A stretch of 7,067 nt of DNA from IMG/VR virus record IMGVR_UViG_3300029070_000030; one strand, 5' to 3'. Both the position numbers and the translations under genes were made by a program. Under the pieces are notes generated by a model, which searched no databases, was not told the origin of the DNA, and saw nothing but the letters and a program-made list of their open reading frames with translations. Below, one piece after another: positions 1 through 7,067 of this stretch (positions are counted from its first letter, which is position 1; each line of letters begins with the position of its first letter). The stretch is from a virus (lineage: Duplodnaviria; Heunggongvirae; Uroviricota; Caudoviricetes).

Positions 1-303
1 GGCGGCCGTCACTGCCGGGTCAGCCGGGGGCAGACTGCCGGTCACGGCAGCCACCTTTGCGGCCGCGTCGGACGGGGAAACACCAAACACCTTTTCAACC
101 AGTTTCAGGCCGTCACCGGCACCACACTGATTGCAGTACCAGGTGCCGCGCCCCTCCCTGTCATCAAAACGGAAGCGGTCACTCCCGCCACAGACCGGAC
201 AGGGCTGATGACGGTTTTTCAGCACCTGAATCCCCAGCGCCGGGAGAATACGCGGCCAGTGGCCGAGCGCATGGCTGACGGTGGCGGTTACGTTCATTTT
301 CAT
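1..303 (-). CDS. alpha: P4-type replication protein alpha (primase-helicase), N-terminal ~101 codons only; gene continues past the window start
   Basis: Not in the ORF track because it is truncated. Hand translation of the minus strand from ATG 303 gives MKMNVTATVSHALGHWPRILPALGIQVLKNRHQPCPVCGGSDRFRFDDREGRGTWYCNQCGAGDGLKLVEKVFGVSPSDAAAKVAAVTGSLPPADPAVTAA with no stop to position 1. AAGGAG lies 9 nt upstream of the ATG (plus 313-318). The CPVC...CNQC spacing is a zinc-ribbon of the kind found at the N-terminus of P4-type primases. It sits just downstream of the orf106-like gene, as in P4. Confidence 0.8.
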   Translation of the reverse strand, partial: MKMNVTATVSHALGHWPRILPALGIQVLKNRHQPCPVCGGSDRFRFDDREGRGTWYCNQCGAGDGLKLVEKVFGVSPSDAAAKVAAVTGSLPPADPAVTAA

Positions 304-317
304 GGTGTTGTTCTCCT

Positions 318-638
318 TCAGTGCAGTACCGGCGCTTTTATGTGACGGGCACAGAGTTCATCCATCACAACCAGCCCGAGAAAGGACAGCGACGGCGCGG
401 CCTTCAGGGGGCCGGATTCCATTAAATCTTCCAGCAGGGCACAGGCTATCTGACGCCCTTTTTCCTCACCGTGCTGGCGCAGATAAAAGCCTTCCAGCTC
501 AGCGGCGATGGCCGCCTCCAGTGACTCAAGGGTGAGATGCGGGTAGCGGTGCTGACGTTCGCACACGGTCAGCCAGGCACAGGCGACAGCGCGACGGTAA
601 AGGGCAGCGCGTAAGACGGGCGGTAAGGGTGTTTTCAT
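318..638 (-). CDS. P4 orf106-like small protein (possibly the Cnr copy-number regulator homologue; that name is from memory)
   Basis: 106-aa ORF on the minus strand; GGGAGG lies 7 nt upstream of ATG 638; position immediately upstream of alpha matches the P4 left operon; size matches P4 orf106. Confidence 0.65.
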
Positions 639-773
639 TTGTTTTCCTCCCTGTGACAGATGACTGCATTCCGTGCCGGTTGCATTAACTGATAAGGCAT
701 ATCTGCGTCTCCTGAAGACGTGCGTATCCCTGCGCGAATACGCACATTTAATTTTTCGGGTGTCGTTTTTTAA

Positions 774-1229
774 TTACAGATAATTGCGGTAACTGTTATC
801 CGGGGTGATTTCCGGGTCAGGCTCCGTGCGGGGAATTTCCCGCCATTCCCGCGCTACCGGTGCTGCCCGGCTGACCGGAACAGTGTCCTGCGGGTAAATA
901 TCCAGATATTTCTCCCGCCATTTCTGTAATTCCGGGTCTCCGGCCATTTCTTTCAGTACCGCATGCCGGTTTACGGGGCTGCGTTTAAACAGGTCAGGAC
1001 GGTCACAGGTAAATTCCCGCAGAAAACGCCCCAGCGGGATGTCTGTGGTGCGCCCGTCGGCGAGGATACGCACAAGGATACTGAATTTACGGCGGTACGG
1101 GTTCCAGACAATGTCCGGGCAGCGGTACGGCATTTCCCACGGAATACCGTCTTCCAGAATGCCGACCACGGCCACATCGGGAAAACCGGCAGAACGGTAA
1201 ATCTCACCGGGCTGGGGAAAATCAAACAT
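774..1229 (-). CDS. P4 orf151-like hypothetical protein
   Basis: 151-aa ORF on the minus strand; its ATG (1229-1227) overlaps the stop of the upstream epsilon-like ORF (ATGTTTGA), suggesting translational coupling; size and position match P4 orf151 between eps and alpha. Confidence 0.65.
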   Translation of the reverse strand: MFDFPQPGEIYRSAGFPDVAVVGILEDGIPWEMPYRCPDIVWNPYRRKFSILVRILADGRTTDIPLGRFLREFTCDRPDLFKRSPVNRHAVLKEMAGDPELQKWREKYLDIYPQDTVPVSRAAPVAREWREIPRTEPDPEITPDNSYRNYL

Positions 1230-1509
1230 GCGTCCTGTCTCCCCGGTCTTTCTGCTGGGCGAGAAAATCGCGGCACAGGCCTTTGGCTTTCAGCTCATTC
1301 AGCACAAAATCAATATCTTCATTCAGGTAGCTGAAAATATGCGGAATGTAGAGCTGATGCAGGCCGGAGAGTTCACGGTGAATCAAATCACCCCCAACAA
1401 ACTGGGATACGGCGCTGGCGCGGTTGAGCTTATGGTAAGCCTCAATGCTGAGGTGTTCACGGGCGTCATGACGCGCTGAGACGGTCTGAGGGGCTTTTTT
1501 ATTACGCAC
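1222..1509 (-). CDS. eps: Epsilon-like protein (helper-prophage derepression factor of P4 family); 95 aa if initiated at GTG 1509
   Basis: C-terminal part of the 175-aa track ORF 1222..1749. GGAGG (minus-strand sense) lies 6 nt upstream of GTG 1509, giving [30 protein letters not shown]...DRTHV (95 aa). Alternative in-frame ATGs are at 1554 and 1590. The full 1749 start is unlikely because that stretch overlaps another long ORF and is Cys/Pro/Leu-rich. Position upstream of orf151 matches P4 eps. Start codon uncertain. Confidence 0.5.
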
Positions 1510-1837
1510 GGGACACCTCCACCACCGGCAGACGGGCAGCAAGGGAGAGCACATAGTCACGGACAAGGGAACGGCGGGCGCTGCGTTCATCACCGGCGAC
1601 GGTGCGAAGCATACAGATACGGGGATGACGGTCTGCGCGACGGACAGCCGCAAACACAAAGACAAATTCAGGGTGTGAAGGGGTAAGGGTCGTAGCCATA
1701 AGGCAACCTCCGATAACAGCGTAAATGACGCTATCGCCGGAGTTTCCACGCTCGATGGCGATAGCCCAGACGGGGGTGGAAATACCGGCGTTATCGGAAA
1801 CCGGCCAGCCCGGAGGCTGCCCCGCCTGAGCTACCAT
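1502..1837 (-). CDS. Hypothetical protein upstream of eps (111 aa from ATG 1837; may extend to ATG 2101, 199 aa)
   Basis: Part of the 214-aa track ORF 1502..2146. The C-terminal 111 codons ([31 protein letters not shown]...LPVVEVSRA) look protein-like, and the stop TAA 1504-1502 abuts the eps GTG. An upstream in-frame ATGATGATG (2101-2093) overlaps the vis stop, which would give 199 aa, but that N-terminal stretch has odd composition and a lower-GC, palindrome-rich template. No recognisable motif. Low confidence. Confidence 0.3.
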
Positions 1838-2097
1838 TGACTCTGCGGTATAATGAGCGGACGCGGGCAGAATGCACGGAGTGCCATTTGCTCGACTGAC
1901 CACACACCACACCATAATCTGGCGCTCTGTGGCGTTGATTGCGACACAAAAAAAGACGCATGGCGCGTCATATGTCGCCGATAACATACTCGGGTTTCCA
2001 CGCCCGGCTGCCGATTTTGCGGCAGCGGAAAAACTATATCCGCAAATGCCGGAAAAAGGCAAGCCAGAAAAAGGGACTTTTTGCAGAACAGGCATCA

Positions 2098-2364
2098 TCA
2101 TGCGTCGTACCCCCGTTTGCGTCCGGCAATGCGCCCGGCCATCCATGCGGTGACTTCAGAGTGCAGCCAGGCTACATTTTTACCGCCAAGACTCACCTGC
2201 GGCGGAAATTCCCCCTTACGGATGAATTCGTAGATGGTCGAGCGTGACAGGCCGCACAGGTGCATCACTTCCGGCAGACGTAAAAAACGCTCCTGCGTGA
2301 TGTCCGGCAGCGGCATCAGTGGCGTCACAGGGGCGGGAGACGGGGAAGAAAAAACAGCTTGCAT
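2098..2364 (-). CDS. vis: AlpA/Vis-family phage DNA-binding regulator (88 aa), first gene of the leftward operon
   Basis: 88-aa [81 protein letters not shown]; the FLRLPEV...GLSRSTIY...G.FP....G...W core is the AlpA/Vis helix-turn-helix signature. GAGGT lies 6 nt upstream of ATG 2364. It is divergent from sid, as in P4-like satellites where alpA is a core gene. Confidence 0.8.
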
Positions 2365-2466
2365 CGGGCTACCTCGTTAATGTCCATACAGCACCGGATA
2401 AGTCCGTCCGGCTTCGGGTAGCGCTTTATTTTGTGAATATTTTCGGCAGACGCAACAGGGGGGATT

Positions 2467-2484
2467 TGTTCCGGCAGTCTTACA
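2467..2484 (-). promoter_or_regulatory. TGT-N12-ACA dyad, candidate Ogr/Delta-type activator site of a leftward late promoter (P_LL-like) upstream of vis
   Basis: TGT (2467-2469), 12 nt, ACA (2482-2484). The centre is ~110 bp upstream of the vis ATG, consistent with a site centred near -55 and a ~55-nt leader. The motif is only 6 fixed bases, so chance occurrence is possible. Confidence 0.4.
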
Positions 2485-2642
2485 ATGGCTGTGTGTTTTT
2501 TGTACATCAGCGCCAGATAGCTTTAAAACGCTCTGGAAGGAGCTGGAAAAAATTATAGTGAAATACAAATTGTTTTTTCTTATTTATTTCAGTGAATTAA
2601 TAAAAATAAAAAGTAATAAACAGCACAAAAAGCCCATCAACG

Positions 2643-2747
2643 GGTGAACAGTGGTGAACAGACGGTGAACAGTCATTACTGCGATTGTTCACCCTTTAAC
2701 TTACTGTATTACTTATCTTTTTTCTTATGGTGAACAGAGGTGAACAG
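2643..2747. repeat. Iteron cluster: five direct copies of GGTGAACAG plus one inverted TGTTCACC; P4 alpha-binding type-I iteron (TGTTCACC), ori/crr-like
   Basis: GGTGAACAG at 2643-2651, 2653-2661, 2664-2672, 2729-2737 and 2739-2747; inverted TGTTCACC at 2686-2693; embedded in an AT-rich tract (2560-2760). The octamer is the reverse complement of the P4 type-I iteron bound by alpha (from memory of the P4 literature). Confidence 0.7.
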
Positions 2748-2825
2748 TAAAATATAAAAAAACAAACAGTAAGCCGGTTTTTCCTGCGACCTTTTCCTGG
2801 CTTGCCGGTCTGAGGATGAGTCTCC

Positions 2826-2843
2826 TGTGTCAGGGCTGGCACA
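2826..2843 (+). promoter_or_regulatory. TGT-N12-ACA dyad, candidate Ogr/Delta-type activator site of the sid late promoter (P_sid-like)
   Basis: TGT (2826-2828), 12 nt, ACA (2841-2843). The centre is ~80 bp upstream of the sid ATG (2916), consistent with a -55 activator site and a short leader. P2/P4 late promoters carry this dyad (established knowledge). Confidence 0.5.
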
Positions 2844-2915
2844 TCTGCAATGCGTCGTGTTGTTGTCCGGTGTACGTCACAATTTTCTTAACCTGAAGTG
2901 ACGAGGAGCCGGAAA

Positions 2916-3650
2916 ATGTCTGACAACACCATCCCTGAATATCTGCAACCCGCGCTGGCACAACTGGAAAAGGCCAGAGCCGCCCATCTTGAGAACGCCC
3001 GCCTGATGGATGAGACCGTCACGGCCATTGAACGGGCAGAGCAGGAAAAAAATGCGCTGGCGCAGGCCGACGGAAACGACGCTGACGACTGGCGCACGGC
3101 CTTTCGTGCAGCCGGTGGTGTCCTGAGCGACGAGCTGAAACAGCGCCACATTGAGCGCGTGGCACGCCGGGAGCTGGTACAGGAATATGACAATCTGGCC
3201 GTGGTGCTGAATTTTGAACGCGAACGCCTGAAAGGGGCGTGTGACAGCACGGCCACCGCCTACCGGAAGGCACATCATCACCTTCTGAGTCTGTATGCAG
3301 AGCATGAGCTGGAACACGCCCTGAATGAAACCTGTGAGGCGCTTGTCCGGGCAATGCATCTGAGCATTCTGGTACAGGAAAATCCGCTCGCCAACACCAC
3401 CGGCCATCAGGGCTACGTCGCACCGGAAAAGGCTGTCATGCAGCAGGTGAAATCATCGCTGGAACAGAAAATAAAACAGATGCAAATCAGCCTCACCGGC
3501 GAGCCGGTTCTCCGGCTGACCGGACTGTCAGCGGCAACACTCCCGCACATGGATTATGAGGTGGCAGGCACACCGGCACAGCGCAAGGTGTGGCAGGACA
3601 AAATAGACCAGCAGGGAGCAGTGCTTAAGGCCAGAGGACTGCTGTCATGA
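2916..3650 (+). CDS. sid: Sid-like capsid size-determination (external scaffold) protein, 244 aa
   Basis: Track ORF 2898..3650; preferred start is ATG 2916 (MSDNTIPEYLQPALAQLEKARAAH...) with AGGAG 8 nt upstream, while GTG 2898 has no SD. Strongly alpha-helical, Ala/Glu/Leu/Gln-rich sequence. The 244-aa length matches P4 Sid, and the order sid-delta-psu is diagnostic. Confidence 0.8.
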   Translation: MSDNTIPEYLQPALAQLEKARAAHLENARLMDETVTAIERAEQEKNALAQADGNDADDWRTAFRAAGGVLSDELKQRHIERVARRELVQEYDNLAVVLNFERERLKGACDSTATAYRKAHHHLLSLYAEHELEHALNETCEALVRAMHLSILVQENPLANTTGHQGYVAPEKAVMQQVKSSLEQKIKQMQISLTGEPVLRLTGLSAATLPHMDYEVAGTPAQRKVWQDKIDQQGAVLKARGLLS

Positions 3651-3892
3651 TGCGCTGCCCTTTCTGTCGTCATTCAGCGCATACTCGCACCAGCCGGTAT
3701 GTGAGTGACAATGTCAAAGAAAGTTATCTGCAGTGCCAGAATATTTACTGTTCGGCGACATTTAAAACGCATGAGTCAATTTGTGCCGTGATTCGTTCTC
3801 CGGTCACGGAGGAAAAACCAGCACCGGCAAGCACAGCACCGGCTGTTGTCCGAAAAGTTAAAGGCTGTTACAGCTCACCATTTAACCATTAA
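3647..3892 (+). CDS. delta: Ogr/Delta-family zinc-finger late transcriptional activator, single-domain form (81 aa)
   Basis: MMRCPFCRHSAHTRTSRYVSDNVKESYLQCQNIYCSATFKTHESI carries the C-x2-C ... C-x4-C zinc-finger spacing and RTSRY/CQN..CSATF motifs typical of P2 Ogr and P4 Delta. Its ATG overlaps the sid stop (ATGA at 3647-3650); GAGGA lies 8 nt upstream. Confidence 0.85.
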   Translation: MMRCPFCRHSAHTRTSRYVSDNVKESYLQCQNIYCSATFKTHESICAVIRSPVTEEKPAPASTAPAVVRKVKGCYSSPFNH

Positions 3893-3906
3893 TCAGGAGA
3901 CGGGGT

Positions 3907-4479
3907 GTGACCACAATGTCATTACAGCAGGCTTTTGAGGTCTGCCAGAATAACAAAGCGGCATGGCTGCAACGCAAAAATGAGCTGGCAGCGGCCGAAC
4001 AGGAATATCTGCGGCTTCTGTCAGGAGAAGGCAGAAACGTCAGCCGCCTGGACGAATTACGCAATATTATCGAAGTCAGAAAATGGCAGGTGAATCAGGC
4101 CGCCGGTCGTTATATTCGTTCGCATGAAGCCGTTCAGCACATCAGCATCCGCGAGCGGCTGAATGATTTTATGCAGCAGCACGGCACAGCACTGGCGGCC
4201 GCACTGGCACCGGAGCTGATGGGCTACAGTGAGCTGACGACCATTGCCCGAAACTGTGCCATACAGCGTGCCACAGATGCCCTGCGTGAAGCCCTCCTGT
4301 CCTGGCTTGCGAAGGGTGAAAAAATTAATTATTCCGCACAGGATAGCGACATTTTAACGACCATCGGATTCAGGCCTGACGCGGCTTCGGTGGATGACAG
4401 CCGTGAAAAATTCACCCCTGCGCAGAACATGATTTTTTCGCGTAAAAGTGCAGAACTGGCATCACGTCAGTCTGTGTAA
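3907..4479 (+). CDS. psu: Psu-like polarity-suppression / capsid-decoration protein, 190 aa
   Basis: 190-aa ORF; GTG 3907 start with AGGAGA 6 nt upstream (the ATG at 3916 is too far from the SD). Third gene of the sid-delta-psu late operon; the length equals P4 Psu. It is followed by a hairpin and then cos. Confidence 0.85.
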   Translation: MTTMSLQQAFEVCQNNKAAWLQRKNELAAAEQEYLRLLSGEGRNVSRLDELRNIIEVRKWQVNQAAGRYIRSHEAVQHISIRERLNDFMQQHGTALAAALAPELMGYSELTTIARNCAIQRATDALREALLSWLAKGEKINYSAQDSDILTTIGFRPDAASVDDSREKFTPAQNMIFSRKSAELASRQSV

Positions 4480-4512
4480 AATTCCCCGAAAATCCGCCTG
4501 TTTTTACTGAAA

Positions 4513-4543
4513 AAAGCCATGCATCGATAAGGTGCATGGCTTT
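4513..4543 (+). terminator. Candidate intrinsic terminator of the late operon downstream of psu
   Basis: Perfect inverted repeat AGCCATGCA (4515-4523) / TGCATGGCT (4533-4541) with a 9-nt loop, extendable by A:T pairs to ~11 bp, followed by TTT and a further TTTT at 4551-4554. The U-tract is interrupted, so efficiency is uncertain. Confidence 0.4.
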
Positions 4544-4643
4544 GCATGCGTTTTCCCGCCTCATTTCCTGCAGATTACGCCGCGCCCGACGCGGCGTGAG
4601 CGTGTCAGTGCAACTGCATTAAAACCGCCCCGCAAAGCGGGCG

Positions 4644-4662
4644 GGCGAGGCGGGGAAAGCAC
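4644..4662. other. cos site: 19-nt P2/P4-type cohesive-end sequence GGCGAGGCGGGGAAAGCAC
   Basis: Exact match at 4644-4662 to the conserved 19-nt cohesive end shared by P2, 186 and P4 (recalled from the literature). It lies between psu and int, where cos sits in P4, and is flanked by GC-rich dyads (4578-4596 and ~4625-4644). Confidence 0.8.
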
Positions 4663-4687
4663 TGCGCGCGAATGGATGATTTTCAAT

Positions 4688-5644
4688 TTAAATGCCAAGC
4701 AATAATTTTTTCTTGAAGTAGCTTTCAAAGCTATCCTTATCACCATTGAATACACCCATCAACTCATCAGAGTTTATTATTATATTCATTATTTCTCTTA
4801 AATAATTATCAAGTTTAATGCTTTCCTCTGGTAGTTTTCCAACTTTAGATGATTTTAAACTGTCACCATGAGTAACTTTAGAGCGAATGTTATAGAATGA
4901 CTTTATTTCATCAAATGTAGTGATAGGATCAAAGTTATATGGTTTTAAGAAAATAGCGACCCGCTCAGAAAGTTTATGAGAAAGTTCAGAGCTATCTGTT
5001 GAGAATAAGCTCTCAAGTGCGCTGCAGTAGTGAGATATTTTCATTGCGGGATCGAAATCTCGCTTTGCTGATCTTATAAAACTCAATGCCCTTCCATAGC
5101 GAGAATATTTTGAATCAACAAAAGAATCAAAAATAGTAGAGTTATTATTATATAGGTGAGTTTGAACTCGATGGTTTATATCTGCCCACTTAGTTAAGTC
5201 ACTCCTGTTAAATTCAACATCAATATGGCGATAACCGCTTGCCATCGTAAATAAACTTAATAGACTATTGTTCGACCATTCAGAATATGCTTTGCGATCA
5301 GTTTTATTGCAATATGCAATTTCGCAAAGCATGCCATTATCCTTGATAAACCAAGAAGTATTTATAAGCATATCTATCCACAAAAGCCAAGTCGTCAATG
5401 CAAAATTGCTTTTTGTAGACGGCTGAAAAAAATCATCTTTAAGATCGGCAAAAATTATGTGATTTGCATTGTATAAATGTTCATATTCAATGATACCAGT
5501 AAAAGGCTTAATATCTTTGTTAATTATTTTTCTAATTTTTGCCCTATCTCTTATTAGAGTAACTCCGGGAAGGAGGTCAAAATCATCGAAATTATCCCCT
5601 ATAACATTCATAAATCTTAATGTTGTGTAGAATTTAAAGTGCAT
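4688..5644 (-). CDS. Hypothetical protein, 318 aa, AT-rich hotspot cargo; function unknown (candidate anti-phage defence / abortive-infection protein)
   Basis: 318-aa ORF with no internal stops in strongly AT-rich DNA that contrasts sharply with the GC-rich P4 backbone. GGAG lies 7 nt upstream of ATG 5644, and the start overlaps the last codons of int. Located between cos and int, the variable hotspot of P4-like satellites. I recognise no family; the only motif noted is a possible Rx4H (R254...H259, NIRSKVTHGD), which is weak. Confidence 0.8.
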   Translation of the reverse strand: MHFKFYTTLRFMNVIGDNFDDFDLLPGVTLIRDRAKIRKIINKDIKPFTGIIEYEHLYNANHIIFADLKDDFFQPSTKSNFALTTWLLWIDMLINTSWFIKDNGMLCEIAYCNKTDRKAYSEWSNNSLLSLFTMASGYRHIDVEFNRSDLTKWADINHRVQTHLYNNNSTIFDSFVDSKYSRYGRALSFIRSAKRDFDPAMKISHYCSALESLFSTDSSELSHKLSERVAIFLKPYNFDPITTFDEIKSFYNIRSKVTHGDSLKSSKVGKLPEESIKLDNYLREIMNIIINSDELMGVFNGDKDSFESYFKKKLLLGI

Positions 5645-6830
5645 TATATATCTCCATATTCATTTTCGGATATAATCTATCACTATACCATTGCATCATT
5701 TCTTTCCTTTTCTCTAAATATTGTGCATGGTTATATGTGCCTCGAATTGTGTTTTTATCTACATGAGCTAATTGCATTTCAATCCATACACTATTGAATC
5801 CTTTTTCATGCAAAATGGTTGACATGGTATGCCTGAACCCATGACCTGTTGCACGACCTTTGTAGCCTAATAACTCAATCACCTGTGTCACACTTTCTTT
5901 AGATATAGGTTTACTACGATTATTTCTACCTATAAAAATGTAGGGATAATGGCCGCTAATAGGCTTGAGCTGTTTAAAAAGGGCAATCACCTGAGTAGAT
6001 AGAGGTACAATATGAGGTCTGCGCATTTTCATCCTTTCAGCTGGAATCTCCCATATTCCTTTCTCAAGGTCAACTTCATCCCACGTGGCAAAGCGCATTT
6101 CCTGAGTTCTTACGCCAGTTAACATGACAATTTTTGTCGCATTTTTAGTGATGATGCTTCCGGTATACGCTTCAAGATCTTGAATAAAATAAGGCAATTC
6201 TTCGGCAGATAAAAATGGGTGGTGTTTTTGCTTAGGAACGGCCAGAGCGATAGCTAAATCAGGTGCTGGATTGTATTCAGCGCGGCCAGTGATGATCGCG
6301 TAGCGAAACACCTCTCCGCATCGTTGACGTACTTTTCTGGTTTTCTCCAACGCTCCACGTTTTTCTATGCGTTTAAGAACTTCAAGCAGTTCTAGGGGTT
6401 TAATTTCAGCTATTGGCCGTTTACCAATGAAAGGAAAAACATCCTGTTCAAATGTTTTAATAATTTCTTCGCGATAAGCTAAAGTCCAGCGATCTGCTTT
6501 TGTTGCATGCCATTCTCTGCTAACGGCCTCAAAAGAGTTTTCAGTTGATAATTTCTGAGCAATTTTCTGAGCCTTACGTTCTTCTACTGGATCAATGCCG
6601 TTTGCAACCTGTTTACGTGCCGTATCGCGTTTCTCACGTGCTTCCGCGAGGCTTACAAGATCGTAACTACCAAATGACATTAACCGCGCTTTACCGGCAA
6701 AACGAAAGCGGAATCGCCATCCCTTTGAGCCGTCTGGATTGATGAGTAATGACAAGCCTTGCCCATCATTCATTGTATATGGTTTGTCTTGTGGTTTTGC
6801 GCGTTTGATTTGTATATCGGTTAGAGCCAT
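5634..6830 (-). CDS. int: P4-type tyrosine integrase (site-specific recombinase), selC-specific
   Basis: 398-aa ORF beginning MALTDIQIKRAKPQDKPYTMNDGQGLSLLINPDGSKGWRFRFRF, the characteristic N-terminal arm-binding domain of P4-family integrases. C-terminal catalytic region has HGFRHT...LAHVDKNTIRGTYNHAQY (H-x-x-R ... H ... Y). It lies directly downstream of, and co-oriented with, a tRNA gene 3' end. Confidence 0.9.
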   Translation of the reverse strand: MALTDIQIKRAKPQDKPYTMNDGQGLSLLINPDGSKGWRFRFRFAGKARLMSFGSYDLVSLAEAREKRDTARKQVANGIDPVEERKAQKIAQKLSTENSFEAVSREWHATKADRWTLAYREEIIKTFEQDVFPFIGKRPIAEIKPLELLEVLKRIEKRGALEKTRKVRQRCGEVFRYAIITGRAEYNPAPDLAIALAVPKQKHHPFLSAEELPYFIQDLEAYTGSIITKNATKIVMLTGVRTQEMRFATWDEVDLEKGIWEIPAERMKMRRPHIVPLSTQVIALFKQLKPISGHYPYIFIGRNNRSKPISKESVTQVIELLGYKGRATGHGFRHTMSTILHEKGFNSVWIEMQLAHVDKNTIRGTYNHAQYLEKRKEMMQWYSDRLYPKMNMEIYNAL

Positions 6831-6992
6831 GTGTATAACTGAAAACTGCGTATGAAGATTCTATACACATTACTATACATATTTTTCGCGGATTCAGGGA
6901 GATGGTCTCGGACTATTACGGACAAGATGATTATTCATCTTATTGAATATAAAGTATTTTATGGAGTATCTCGGAACTGGCTGGATGAAGTT

Positions 6993-7067
6993 TGGCGGAA
7001 GATCACAGGAGTCGAACCTGCCCGGGACCGCTGGCGGCCCCAACTGGATTTGAAGTCCAGCCGCCTC
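6993..7067 (-). tRNA. selC: tRNA-Sec (selC), 3' 75 nt including CCA; 5' ~20 nt lie beyond the window end
   Basis: Reverse complement of 6993-7067 reads GAGGCGGCTGGACTTCAAATCCAGTTGGGGCCGCCAGCGGTCCCGGGCAGGTTCGACTCCTGTGATCTTCCGCCA, which matches my recollection of positions 21-95 of E. coli selC (anticodon loop CTTCAAATC with UCA, long variable arm, T-arm GGTTCGACTCC, 3' CCA). Confidence 0.9.

What the first reader, a model, noticed from the sequence alone, without database searches (positions are those of the whole stretch)
4688..6830. int plus cargo form a compositionally distinct module relative to the GC-rich P4 backbone
By eye, the backbone (alpha through psu, 1-4480) is GC-rich, the integrase is noticeably more AT-rich, and the cargo is strongly AT-rich. 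The conserved P4 core therefore appears joined to an int-cargo segment with a different history, consistent with modular exchange of the integration/hotspot end between satellites targeting different tRNA loci.
Basis: inference. Interest (0 to 1): 0.4.

Follow-up and report, generated by a model that had tools for sequence, protein, structure and literature searches.

The report
P4 satellite integrase and defence cassette
The AT-rich block is the integrase gene plus a swappable anti-phage gene at the known variable end of a P4-like phage satellite sitting in the E. coli selC tRNA gene, so the pattern is real but already described.

Summary
The compositional step is real. GC is 0.546 for 1-4687, 0.322 for the cargo and 0.408 for int. 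The main change point is at 4670 (LRT 185; best of 500 shuffles 20.6) and a second lies at 5816, inside int. The window is a P4-like satellite integrated at selC. Its backbone is 96% identical to phage P4 and 97-99% identical to other E. coli selC satellites. Homology to all of them stops 7 nt after the cos cohesive end (4644-4662).

The cargo (318 aa, WP_001710916) is a short Apea-like HEPN protein. Rousset et al. 2022 already list it as a P4 hotspot item.

Backbone and int/cargo do have different histories: the same backbone carries int genes 40-60% identical at leuX and thrW, and many other cargos at selC. But composition does not show this. Every selC int allele, the thrW int and P4's own int and cargo show the same three GC tiers.

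Int and cargo are not one discrete module. Int is a statistically supported mosaic of other selC alleles. Only its 3' tail tracks the cargo. Even so, seven HEPN-bearing elements differ by 0-3 SNPs across int plus cargo while their backbones differ by up to 5%. Known biology; low to moderate interest.

The parts
1..4643 (.). Conserved P4-like backbone: 3' end of the alpha primase gene, DUF5375/orf106, orf151, epsilon/derepression, icd-like, alpA-like, the ori and promoter region, sid, delta and psu.
   Evidence: 95.9-96.3% identical to phage P4 NC_001609 and 96.7-98.7% identical to seven other E. coli selC satellites (96% to L010). Pfam finds Psu, Ogr_Delta, Phage_AlpA and DUF5375. RefSeq annotation of the 99.7% identical locus L001. 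GC 0.546.
2401..2897 (.). AT-rich dip inside the backbone (GC 0.408), corresponding to the P4 ori and early/late promoter region.
   Evidence: Maps to P4 from about 9070 to 9580, which overlaps the annotated origin at 9086-9809.
4644..4662 (+). The 19-nt cohesive end of the cos site, GGCGAGGCGGGGAAAGCAC.
   Evidence: Exact match, with 0 expected by chance. Identical to the first 19 nt of the linear P4 genome.
4663..4669 (.). Left junction of the variable region: a conserved 7-mer, YGCSCGY, after which all compared elements diverge completely.
   Evidence: Junction sequences of 11 elements and P4. BLAST break at 4668-4669. GC change point at 4670.
4625..4644 (-). Terminator-like GC-rich hairpin followed by a T run on the minus strand, just past cos and downstream of int and cargo.
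   Evidence: Consensus scan only. The sequence belongs to the conserved backbone. Function is inferred, not shown.
4688..5644 (-). Cargo: a 318-aa single-gene Apea-like HEPN protein (WP_001710916.1), with an N-terminal alpha/beta domain (about residues 1-166) and a C-terminal HEPN domain carrying R254-x4-H259.
5634..6830 (-). P4-type tyrosine integrase specific for selC, 398 aa (WP_001414312.1). It is a mosaic allele, and its last codons overlap the cargo start by 11 nt.
   Evidence: Pfam Arm-DNA-bind_3, Phage_int_M and Phage_integrase. GC 0.408. Mosaic structure. The C-terminal tail is shared only with the HEPN85-linked allele in L009. Overlap read directly from the sequence.
5634..5816 (-). 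AT-rich 3' end of int (GC about 0.30), which contains the right-hand limit of homology to other alleles (about 5664-5691).
   Evidence: Change point at 5816. The last 180 nt of all 10 selC alleles have GC 0.30-0.38. BLAST homology resumes at 5664-5691.
6831..6993 (.). Spacer between int and selC (int promoter and attL arm region), GC 0.35.
   Evidence: 161-163 nt long with GC 0.34-0.36 in all ten selC elements.
6994..7067 (-). Part of the selC tRNA-Sec gene (attL core side), cut off by the end of the window.
   Evidence: L001 annotates tRNA-Sec at locus 14994-15088, which equals window 6994 onwards. ARAGORN finds nothing in the window because the gene is truncated. 5425 of 5426 E. coli genomes have a match somewhere in the window, which I attribute to this segment.

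Best explanation
The window is the right-hand part of a P4-like phage satellite integrated at selC. The three GC tiers (backbone about 0.55, int about 0.41, cargo about 0.32) are the standard architecture of this satellite family.

The cargo occupies the known psu/cos-int defence hotspot. It is a short Apea-like HEPN protein, so a predicted RNase and presumably an anti-phage effector.

The backbone is kept nearly uniform across E. coli satellites at several tRNA sites. The cargo is replaced as a cassette. Its left junction is fixed 7 nt beyond the cos cohesive end. Its right junction falls at variable points inside the 3' part of int.

Int therefore exists as deeply diverged, recombining alleles. 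Only the 3' tail is tightly linked to a given cargo, although over short timescales the whole int-cargo-selC stretch is inherited together.

Shown here: the composition, the junctions, the mosaicism and the linkage. Inferred: homologous recombination as the mechanism, co-transcription of int and cargo, and the RNase or defence function.
For: Composition and its generality:
- GC values and change points for the window.
- The same tiers in ten selC elements and in P4.

Identity as a P4-like satellite at selC.

Hotspot behaviour:
- Backbones 96.7-98.7% identical to the window over 1-4669 carry AAA, DEAD+DUF2290, TrlF, misBC, pentapeptide (Hailong-like), P-loop and AAA+HNH cargos. L010 (RT+SLATT) is 96% identical apart from a delta indel, and L013 (SIR2) is 97.6% identical over sid-psu.
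- Sharp left junction next to cos in all compared elements.

History of int:
- Int alleles are 76-88% identical to each other while backbones are 94.5-99.6% identical.
- Third codon positions are 53-70% identical and second positions 95-98%.
- Mosaic segments are supported by 0 of 200 permutations.
- A thrW int has a selC-like C-terminus next to a 61% cargo homologue.

Short-term linkage: 0-3 SNPs in 2.2 kb of int plus cargo, against up to 5.3% divergence in the backbone.

Cargo fold and motif.

Literature: PMC9122126 (hotspot; Table S1A lists WP_001710916), PMC8628076 (discordant int phylogeny), PMC13586616 (rapid swaps).
Against: - The recombination mechanism is inferred from sequence patterns only.
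- The link between the int 3' end and the HEPN cargo is weak at nucleotide level (nt 991-1160 compared with L009: 10 of 200 permutations reach the observed value). It rests mainly on the shared C-terminal tail and on one chimeric thrW example.
- PMC13586616 reports a low correlation (0.2 or less) between defence similarity and each core gene, so tight int-cargo linkage may not hold generally.
- No promoter-like signal for the cargo was found, and promoter-like hits in the region were fewer than in shuffles.
- The window protein itself does not reach Pfam HEPN_Apea or any PADLOC model.
- Anti-phage activity of this protein has not been tested.
Confidence: 0.8

Rival explanations
1. One reading: int and cargo form one discrete module that arrived together from a different, AT-richer source and was joined to a P4 core. 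Such modules would be exchanged between satellites that target different tRNA genes.
For: - Int plus cargo is nearly invariant (0.14% or less) across elements whose backbones differ by up to 5.3% and carry different delta and psu variants.
- Cargo homologues at 61-85% identity always lie directly downstream of a P4-type int, in the same orientation, with an overlap or a gap of 20 nt or less.
- Int divergence and cargo divergence rise together, from 93%/85% down to 60%/61%.
- The backbone is shared with leuX and thrW satellites that have unrelated int genes.
Against: - Int (0.41) and cargo (0.32) differ in GC, and the step between them lies inside int.
- Every selC int allele has the same GC and the same GC gradient regardless of cargo or cargo orientation.
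- Int is a mosaic with segments 98-99% identical to alleles linked to other cargos.
- This int-cargo pair was found only at selC.
- Outside Enterobacterales the cargo family has no P4-type int within 5 kb: 35 of 36 genome loci lack one next to it, and it also occurs as Vibrio integron cassettes.
Confidence: 0.3
2. The low GC of int and cargo reflects selection or function rather than history. Examples would be AT-rich DNA kept for H-NS-type silencing or tight control of a recombinase and a toxic effector, or arm-site and promoter content.
For: - The GC level and the 5'-to-3' gradient of int are conserved in all ten selC alleles despite 12-24% divergence.
- The enterobacterial HEPN cargo stays at GC 0.31-0.34 on backbones of GC 0.50-0.60 and beside host flanks of 0.47-0.58.
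- Cargo homologues are at least 5 GC points below their flanks in 22 of 36 genomes across phyla.
- All hotspot regions compared are 0.32-0.38 whatever they encode.
Against: - It does not explain the discordant divergence (backbone 1-3%, int 12-24%) or the homology breaks, which show different histories directly.
- This explanation is compatible with the best explanation rather than an alternative to it.
Confidence: 0.35
3. The int-cargo segment did not move. A single ancestral satellite kept its int-cargo end, while its backbone was repeatedly overwritten in patches by gene conversion from the many other P4-like satellites in E. coli. The diverged int acted as a barrier to recombination.
For: - Differences among HEPN-bearing elements are clustered in blocks (1501-2000, 2501-2750, 3501-4000) rather than spread evenly.
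- E. coli genomes carry up to 6 sid-psu backbone copies that could act as donors.
- Int alleles are 12-24% diverged, which should hinder homologous exchange.
Against: - The existing int mosaicism shows that recombination does occur inside int.
- The data cannot distinguish the direction of transfer. This is largely the same process as in the best explanation, seen from the other side.
Confidence: 0.4
4. The GC step is a chance fluctuation, or an artefact of reading the sequence by eye.
For: None. The only partial support is the backbone's own AT-rich dip at 2401-2897, which shows that local GC dips occur without any change of history.
Against: LRT 184.6 against a maximum of 20.6 in 500 shuffles. 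The step coincides to the base with an independent homology break.
Confidence: 0.01

Closest known systems
Phage satellite P4 (NC_001609) and the P4-like satellites of Enterobacterales
   Same: Same gene order and 96% nucleotide identity over alpha through psu. Identical cos cohesive end. The same three GC tiers (backbone, int, hotspot genes). Variable genes lie between cos and int.
   Different: It integrates at selC rather than leuX, with an int only 40% identical in protein sequence. Delta is the short 81-aa form. The hotspot holds one HEPN gene instead of gop-beta-cII.
P4 psu-int defence hotspot (Rousset et al. 2022, PMC9122126; Moura de Sousa et al. 2026, PMC13586616)
   Same: The position next to cos, the replacement of cargo on near-identical backbones, and low GC. 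The exact protein WP_001710916 is listed in their Table S1A as 'HEPN_Apea'.
   Different: In the passages I read (Discussion and hotspot sections of PMC13586616; keyword passages of PMC9122126 and PMC8628076), the right-hand junction is not said to fall inside int, nor int to be a mosaic with a cargo-linked 3' tail. PMC13586616 leaves int out of its core-gene tree and core similarity measure and says the recombination process is still to be elucidated.
ApeA anti-phage defence protein (Gao et al. 2020; bioRxiv 10.64898/2026.01.26.701840 and 10.64898/2026.03.20.713152)
   Same: A single-gene system with a C-terminal HEPN domain of the Apea type carrying an Rx4H motif, and an N-terminal domain of unknown homology. 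It likely works as an infection-activated RNase.
   Different: The characterised ApeA is described as about 600 aa, whereas this protein is 318 aa. No PADLOC model hits it, and it has no direct Pfam HEPN_Apea hit. Oligomeric state, ligand pocket and RNA targets are unknown.
Hitch-hiking of genes next to loci under diversifying selection in E. coli, for example gnd next to the O-antigen rfb cluster (from general knowledge, not tested here)
   Same: A housekeeping-type gene next to a hypervariable cassette shows deep, mosaic allelic divergence, while the rest of the unit is nearly uniform.
   Different: Here the unit is a mobile satellite and the linked gene is its own integrase. No population-genetic test was run.

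Membership tests
P4-like phage satellite | Core genes psu, delta, sid, alpA, epsilon/ash, alpha and int, in P4 order | tested here: met
   Pfam finds Psu, Ogr_Delta, Phage_AlpA and the integrase domains. Sid, epsilon and alpha are identified by 96% nucleotide identity to P4 and by RefSeq annotation of L001. Only the 3' end of alpha lies in the window.
P4-like phage satellite | P2/P4-type cos site between psu and the hotspot | tested here: met
   Exact 19-mer at 4644-4662, identical to the left end of P4.
P4-like phage satellite | Integration next to the 3' end of a tRNA gene by a P4-type tyrosine integrase | tested here: met
   tRNA-Sec lies 163 nt from the int start in L001. Int domains.
P4-like phage satellite | Mobilisation by a P2-like helper phage | not testable with these tools
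   Needs an induction and transduction experiment.
P4 psu-int defence hotspot | Unrelated gene sets at the same position on near-identical backbones | tested here: met
   Ten different cargos across eleven E. coli elements compared (ten at selC, one at thrW), with the break at 4669/4670.
P4 psu-int defence hotspot | The cargo confers phage resistance | not testable with these tools
   WP_001710916 is listed in Table S1A of PMC9122126. The only HEPN entries found in the tested-systems table (S2B) are different proteins.
HEPN superfamily | Rx4-6H motif in a four-helix HEPN fold | tested here: met
Pfam HEPN_Apea (PF18739) | Match to the family profile at the gathering score | tested here: inconclusive
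   The window protein gives no hit even at E of 10 or less. A 33%-identical homologue, P0109, scores exactly at the cut-off (24.4 bits). Rousset Table S1A and UniRef names call close relatives HEPN_Apea or Apea-like.
ApeA defence system (Gao 2020) | Protein of about 600 aa recognised by the ApeA defence model | tested here: not met
   318 aa, and no PADLOC family at E of 0.01 or less. The length of characterised ApeA is taken from bioRxiv 10.64898/2026.03.20.713152.
ApeA defence system (Gao 2020) | Infection-activated RNase (tRNA anticodon or phage RNA cleavage) in an oligomeric assembly | not testable with these tools
   Biochemistry is required. Only the catalytic motif is seen.
   GC 0.41 against 0.32, with the step inside int. 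Int is a mosaic with segments 98-99% identical to alleles linked to other cargos.
   0.14% or less against 0.06-5.3% in 7 elements. 19 records have int at 99% or more, and 17 have cargo at 99% or more, one of them truncated.

The most novel reading that the evidence does not exclude
Defence-cassette swapping in P4-like satellites may work by homologous recombination between two arms. One is a fixed left arm ending 7 nt past the cos cohesive end. The other is a variable right arm inside the conserved 3' catalytic region of int. Each cassette would then drag along an int C-terminal tail, sometimes overlapping its own start codon. SelC int alleles would persist as ancient, mosaic lineages (third codon positions only 53-70% identical) because they are linked to cargo under diversifying selection. 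Chimeric integrases, such as thrW body plus selC-like tail, would be the footprint of transfer between tRNA sites. This would give a concrete answer to the recombination process that PMC13586616 calls still to be elucidated.
Probability: 0.4. Interest if true: 0.45.

Novelty: already known. Interest (0 to 1): 0.25.

Why it matters
This is a textbook-like example of how phage satellites act as platforms that carry and exchange bacterial immune genes. The conserved hijacking core, the site-specific integrase and the defence cassette evolve on three different timescales.

The useful practical lesson is that low GC alone does not date or source the int gene, because the whole family shares the pattern. 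Comparative breakpoints do reveal history.

The fine-scale result could help explain how cassettes are swapped and how satellites change insertion site: the left junction is fixed at cos, the right junction lies inside int, and int is mosaic. That would need confirmation on thousands of elements.

The cargo is an uncharacterised short relative of the ApeA RNase defence protein and a reasonable candidate for testing.

Tried and rejected
- ARAGORN on the window found no tRNA. This is because the window cuts selC. It was resolved with the annotated locus L001.
- Pfam, NCBIfam and PADLOC scans of the cargo gave nothing at E of 0.1 or less. PHROGs gave only an unnamed family.
- H118 looked like a recombinant: the int 5' half is 100% identical and the rest is missing. 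It is an IS1-truncated remnant, so it was rejected as evidence of recombination.
- I looked for a cargo promoter inside the AT-rich int 3' end. Promoter-like sites were fewer than in shuffles (3 against 7.8), so no support.
- I asked whether AT-richness of the int 3' end is specific to this cargo. It is not, because all alleles show it.
- I asked whether AT-richness is intrinsic to the cargo protein family. Homologues range from GC 0.27 to 0.56 and partly track their hosts, so it is not intrinsic.
- I did not run a large-sample test of association between int alleles and cargo types. The tools list at most 60 records per search and allow 30 region fetches.
Full report
OBSERVATION

The compositional claim holds. 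GC is 0.546 for 1-4687, 0.322 for the cargo (4688-5633) and 0.408 for int (5634-6830). GC3 is 0.285 for the cargo and 0.331 for int, against 0.56-0.65 in most backbone genes (delta is 0.44). A likelihood change-point search places the main step at 4670 (LRT 184.6) and a second at 5816 (LRT 33.8). In 500 shuffles of the window the largest LRT was 20.6.

The second step lies about 180 nt inside the 3' end of int, not at the gene boundary. The backbone also has its own AT-rich dip at 2401-2897 (GC 0.408), which corresponds to the P4 ori and promoter region.

WHAT THE WINDOW IS

Pfam recognises Psu, Ogr/Delta, AlpA, DUF5375 (P4 orf106) and a three-domain P4-type tyrosine integrase.

The window is 99.7% identical to E. 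coli WY517-2. There the element lies at selC, with tRNA-Sec starting 163 nt from the int start. The window end cuts that tRNA, which explains why ARAGORN found nothing.

Window 1-3769 and 3922-4643 are 96% identical to phage P4. The gap between them is a short form (81 aa) of delta instead of the long form (166 aa).

The 19-nt cos cohesive end sits at 4644-4662.

WHERE SYNTENY AND IDENTITY BREAK

I fetched ten other E. coli selC satellites, one thrW satellite and P4 itself.

Seven selC satellites with typical backbones that were aligned over the full window are 96.7-98.7% identical over window 1-4669. L010 is 96% identical apart from a delta indel. All then lose homology at 4668-4669, exactly at the GC change point. 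In every element where the exact cos 19-mer was found, P4 included, the conserved sequence ends with cos plus a 7-mer (YGCSCGY), and completely unrelated sequence follows.

The cargos seen in this slot are:
- AAA ATPase
- DEAD helicase plus DUF2290
- TrlF
- misB/misC
- pentapeptide plus hypothetical (Hailong-like)
- P-loop NTPase
- AAA plus HNH
- RT plus SLATT
- SIR2
- at thrW, a Gabija-like pair

This is the psu-int defence hotspot of Rousset et al. 2022 (PMC9122126). Table S1A of that paper lists this exact protein, WP_001710916, as 'HEPN_Apea'.

Homology resumes at about 5664-5691, inside the last 10-20 codons of int, but only at 83-89% identity.

IS LOW GC EVIDENCE OF A SEPARATE HISTORY?

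Not by itself. All ten selC int alleles have GC 0.40-0.43. They share the same decline from about 0.47 at the 5' end to about 0.32 at the 3' end, whatever cargo follows and in whichever orientation. The int-selC spacer is 0.34-0.36 and the hotspots are 0.32-0.38.

The thrW int is 0.45. P4 itself shows backbone 0.49-0.61, int 0.46 and gop/beta/cII 0.34-0.37. The three tiers are therefore a family trait.

Cargo homologues in other phyla range from GC 0.27 to 0.56 and are usually below their flanks (22 of 36 loci). The enterobacterial clade stays at 0.31-0.34 on backbones of 0.50-0.60.

DO BACKBONE AND INT/CARGO HAVE DIFFERENT HISTORIES?

Yes, and this is shown directly by divergence.
- Backbones of the E. 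coli selC satellites are 94.5-99.6% identical to each other. Their int genes are 76-88% identical. The exception is the L002/L007 pair at 96%, and these two carry the same cargo family.
- Third codon positions of int are only 53-70% identical, while second positions are 95-98% identical. These are old alleles under purifying selection.
- The same backbone carries a 60%-identical int at thrW (98% over sid-psu) and a 40%-identical int at leuX (96%, phage P4).

This agrees with Moura de Sousa and Rocha 2021 (PMC8628076). They found that integrase distances are uncorrelated with those of psu, sid and delta (rho 0.01-0.16) and concluded that integrases are often exchanged.

IS INT PLUS CARGO ONE MODULE?

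Over short timescales, yes. Cargo at 99% identity or more occurs in 17 of 5426 complete E. coli genomes (one copy truncated), and two further genomes carry an 85% version. The int allele at 99% or more occurs in 19 records, and all other selC alleles are below 95%.

Seven HEPN-bearing elements encode identical Int and HEPN proteins and differ by 0-3 SNPs across 2.2 kb. Their backbones differ by 0.06-5.3%, in blocks at 1501-2000, 2501-2750 and 3501-4000, the last of which includes the short and long delta forms.

An element with a very different backbone (68% identical in the multiple alignment; the BLAST-alignable parts are about 79%) carries an 85% cargo. Its 398-aa int has the same unusual C-terminal tail and the same 11-nt overlap.

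Cargo homologues at 71-75% identity, from metagenomes and from Citrobacter, also sit 9-20 nt downstream of a selC-type int.

Over longer timescales, no. The window's int is a mosaic.
- nt 191-580 are 1.5-2.6% diverged from the alleles linked to misBC, AAA and P-loop cargos.
- nt 551-920 are 1.6% diverged from the allele linked to RT+SLATT.
- Elsewhere divergence is 18-24%. In both cases 0 of 200 permutations reached the observed contrast.
- Only the last 170-240 nt lean towards the HEPN85-linked allele, and weakly (10 of 200 permutations).

A 61% cargo homologue overlaps by 4 nt the stop codon of a thrW-type int. Residues 1-300 of that int are 92-95% identical to another thrW int. Its last 37 residues are only 42% identical to that thrW int and resemble selC-type tails (59-72%). 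This is a single case of a chimeric integrase next to this cargo family.

Outside Enterobacterales the family is not tied to P4-type integrases. 35 of 36 species-representative loci lack one next to the gene; one Pseudomonas locus has a 34% tyrosine recombinase 2.5 kb upstream in the opposite orientation. Vibrio cholerae homologues are superintegron cassettes.

MECHANISM (INFERRED)

Cassettes appear to be exchanged by recombination. The left arm is fixed at cos. The right arm lies at variable positions in the conserved 3' part of int, or beyond it in selC.

The cargo therefore carries a variable length of int with it. Repeated events leave a mosaic int whose linkage to the cargo decays with distance. 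An equivalent view is that the uniform backbone is repeatedly overwritten from other P4-like copies, of which there are up to 6 per genome, while the diverged int resists conversion.

Moura de Sousa et al. 2026 (PMC13586616) document the rapid swaps. They report low linkage of defences with each core gene and state that the recombination process remains to be elucidated. They leave the integrase out of their core-gene tree and core similarity measure.

Int and cargo may be co-transcribed. They have the same orientation and an 11-nt overlap, and a terminator-like hairpin on the same strand follows at 4625-4644. No promoter evidence was found, so this is inference.

THE CARGO

It has 126 homologues at E of 0.001 or less, spread across many phyla. 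R254 and H259 (RSKVTH) are invariant, together with E211, E227 and R228.

Sequence searches of the PDB and Foldseek found nothing significant for the whole protein.

The characterised ApeA defence protein is described as about 600 aa. It cleaves tRNA anticodon loops or phage RNA after ligand binding (bioRxiv 10.64898/2026.01.26.701840 and 10.64898/2026.03.20.713152). The window protein is 318 aa and is not recognised by PADLOC, nor directly by Pfam HEPN_Apea.

I therefore call it a short Apea-like HEPN protein that probably works as an infection-triggered RNase. I do not call it a member of ApeA.

VERDICT

The element, the hotspot and even this cargo protein are already catalogued.

The modest additions, not found in the sections of the three papers I read, are:
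- the base-precise left junction at cos
- the right junction inside int
- the statistically supported int mosaic
- the near-invariance of int plus cargo across diverged backbones
- one chimeric thrW/selC-type int

Interest is low to moderate.

Noticed in passing
L001:3752-5383 (outside the window, beyond alpha): The same satellite in strain WY517-2 carries a 'TIR domain-containing anti-phage reverse transcriptase' between alpha and the far att side. This is the minor primase-att hotspot described in PMC13586616.
   Followed up: no
window 2401-2897: AT-rich dip (GC 0.41) within the GC-rich backbone, matching the P4 ori and promoter region. Among HEPN-bearing elements, the 2501-2750 part of it is a swapped block, about 9% diverged.
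   Followed up: partly
window 3647-3892: Delta is the short 81-aa form. P4, L010 and L023 carry a 166-aa form. L023 has the identical int and cargo, so the delta form varies independently of the int-cargo end.
   Followed up: partly
L024:4826-6951 and L025:3445-5555: A thrW-type integrase has a C-terminal ~40 residues that look selC-type. Its stop codon overlaps by 4 nt the start of a 61% HEPN homologue. A partial tRNA-Thr-like 3' end lies just upstream (identified from memory), and another island (YfjJ/AlpA genes) lies to the left.
   Followed up: partly
L029:4786-6957; also L028 and L030: Vibrio cholerae homologues of the cargo (45% identity) lie among cassette-type small genes (DUF645 and similar). 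In L029 the homologue lies 250 nt from an integron-type integrase next to infC, rpmI and rplT.
   Followed up: no
window 4625-4644, minus strand: A GC-rich hairpin plus T run immediately past cos, on the strand of int and cargo. It could terminate the int-cargo transcript. It belongs to the conserved backbone.
   Followed up: no
L010:1-13403: In strain 2015C-4136CT1 a P4-like satellite with an RT+SLATT cargo sits between selC and the LEE type III secretion island (escF, espF).
   Followed up: no
L014:9040-10134: In a metagenomic selC satellite the 73% HEPN homologue is accompanied by a DUF5677 gene in the hotspot. A DUF5677 gene also occurs near the Vibrio homologue in L029 (9591-10313).
   Followed up: no
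L018:8248-9462: An IS1A insertion truncates this same int allele at selC in strain 90-9281 and the rest of the satellite is gone. This is a decayed remnant.
   Followed up: yes
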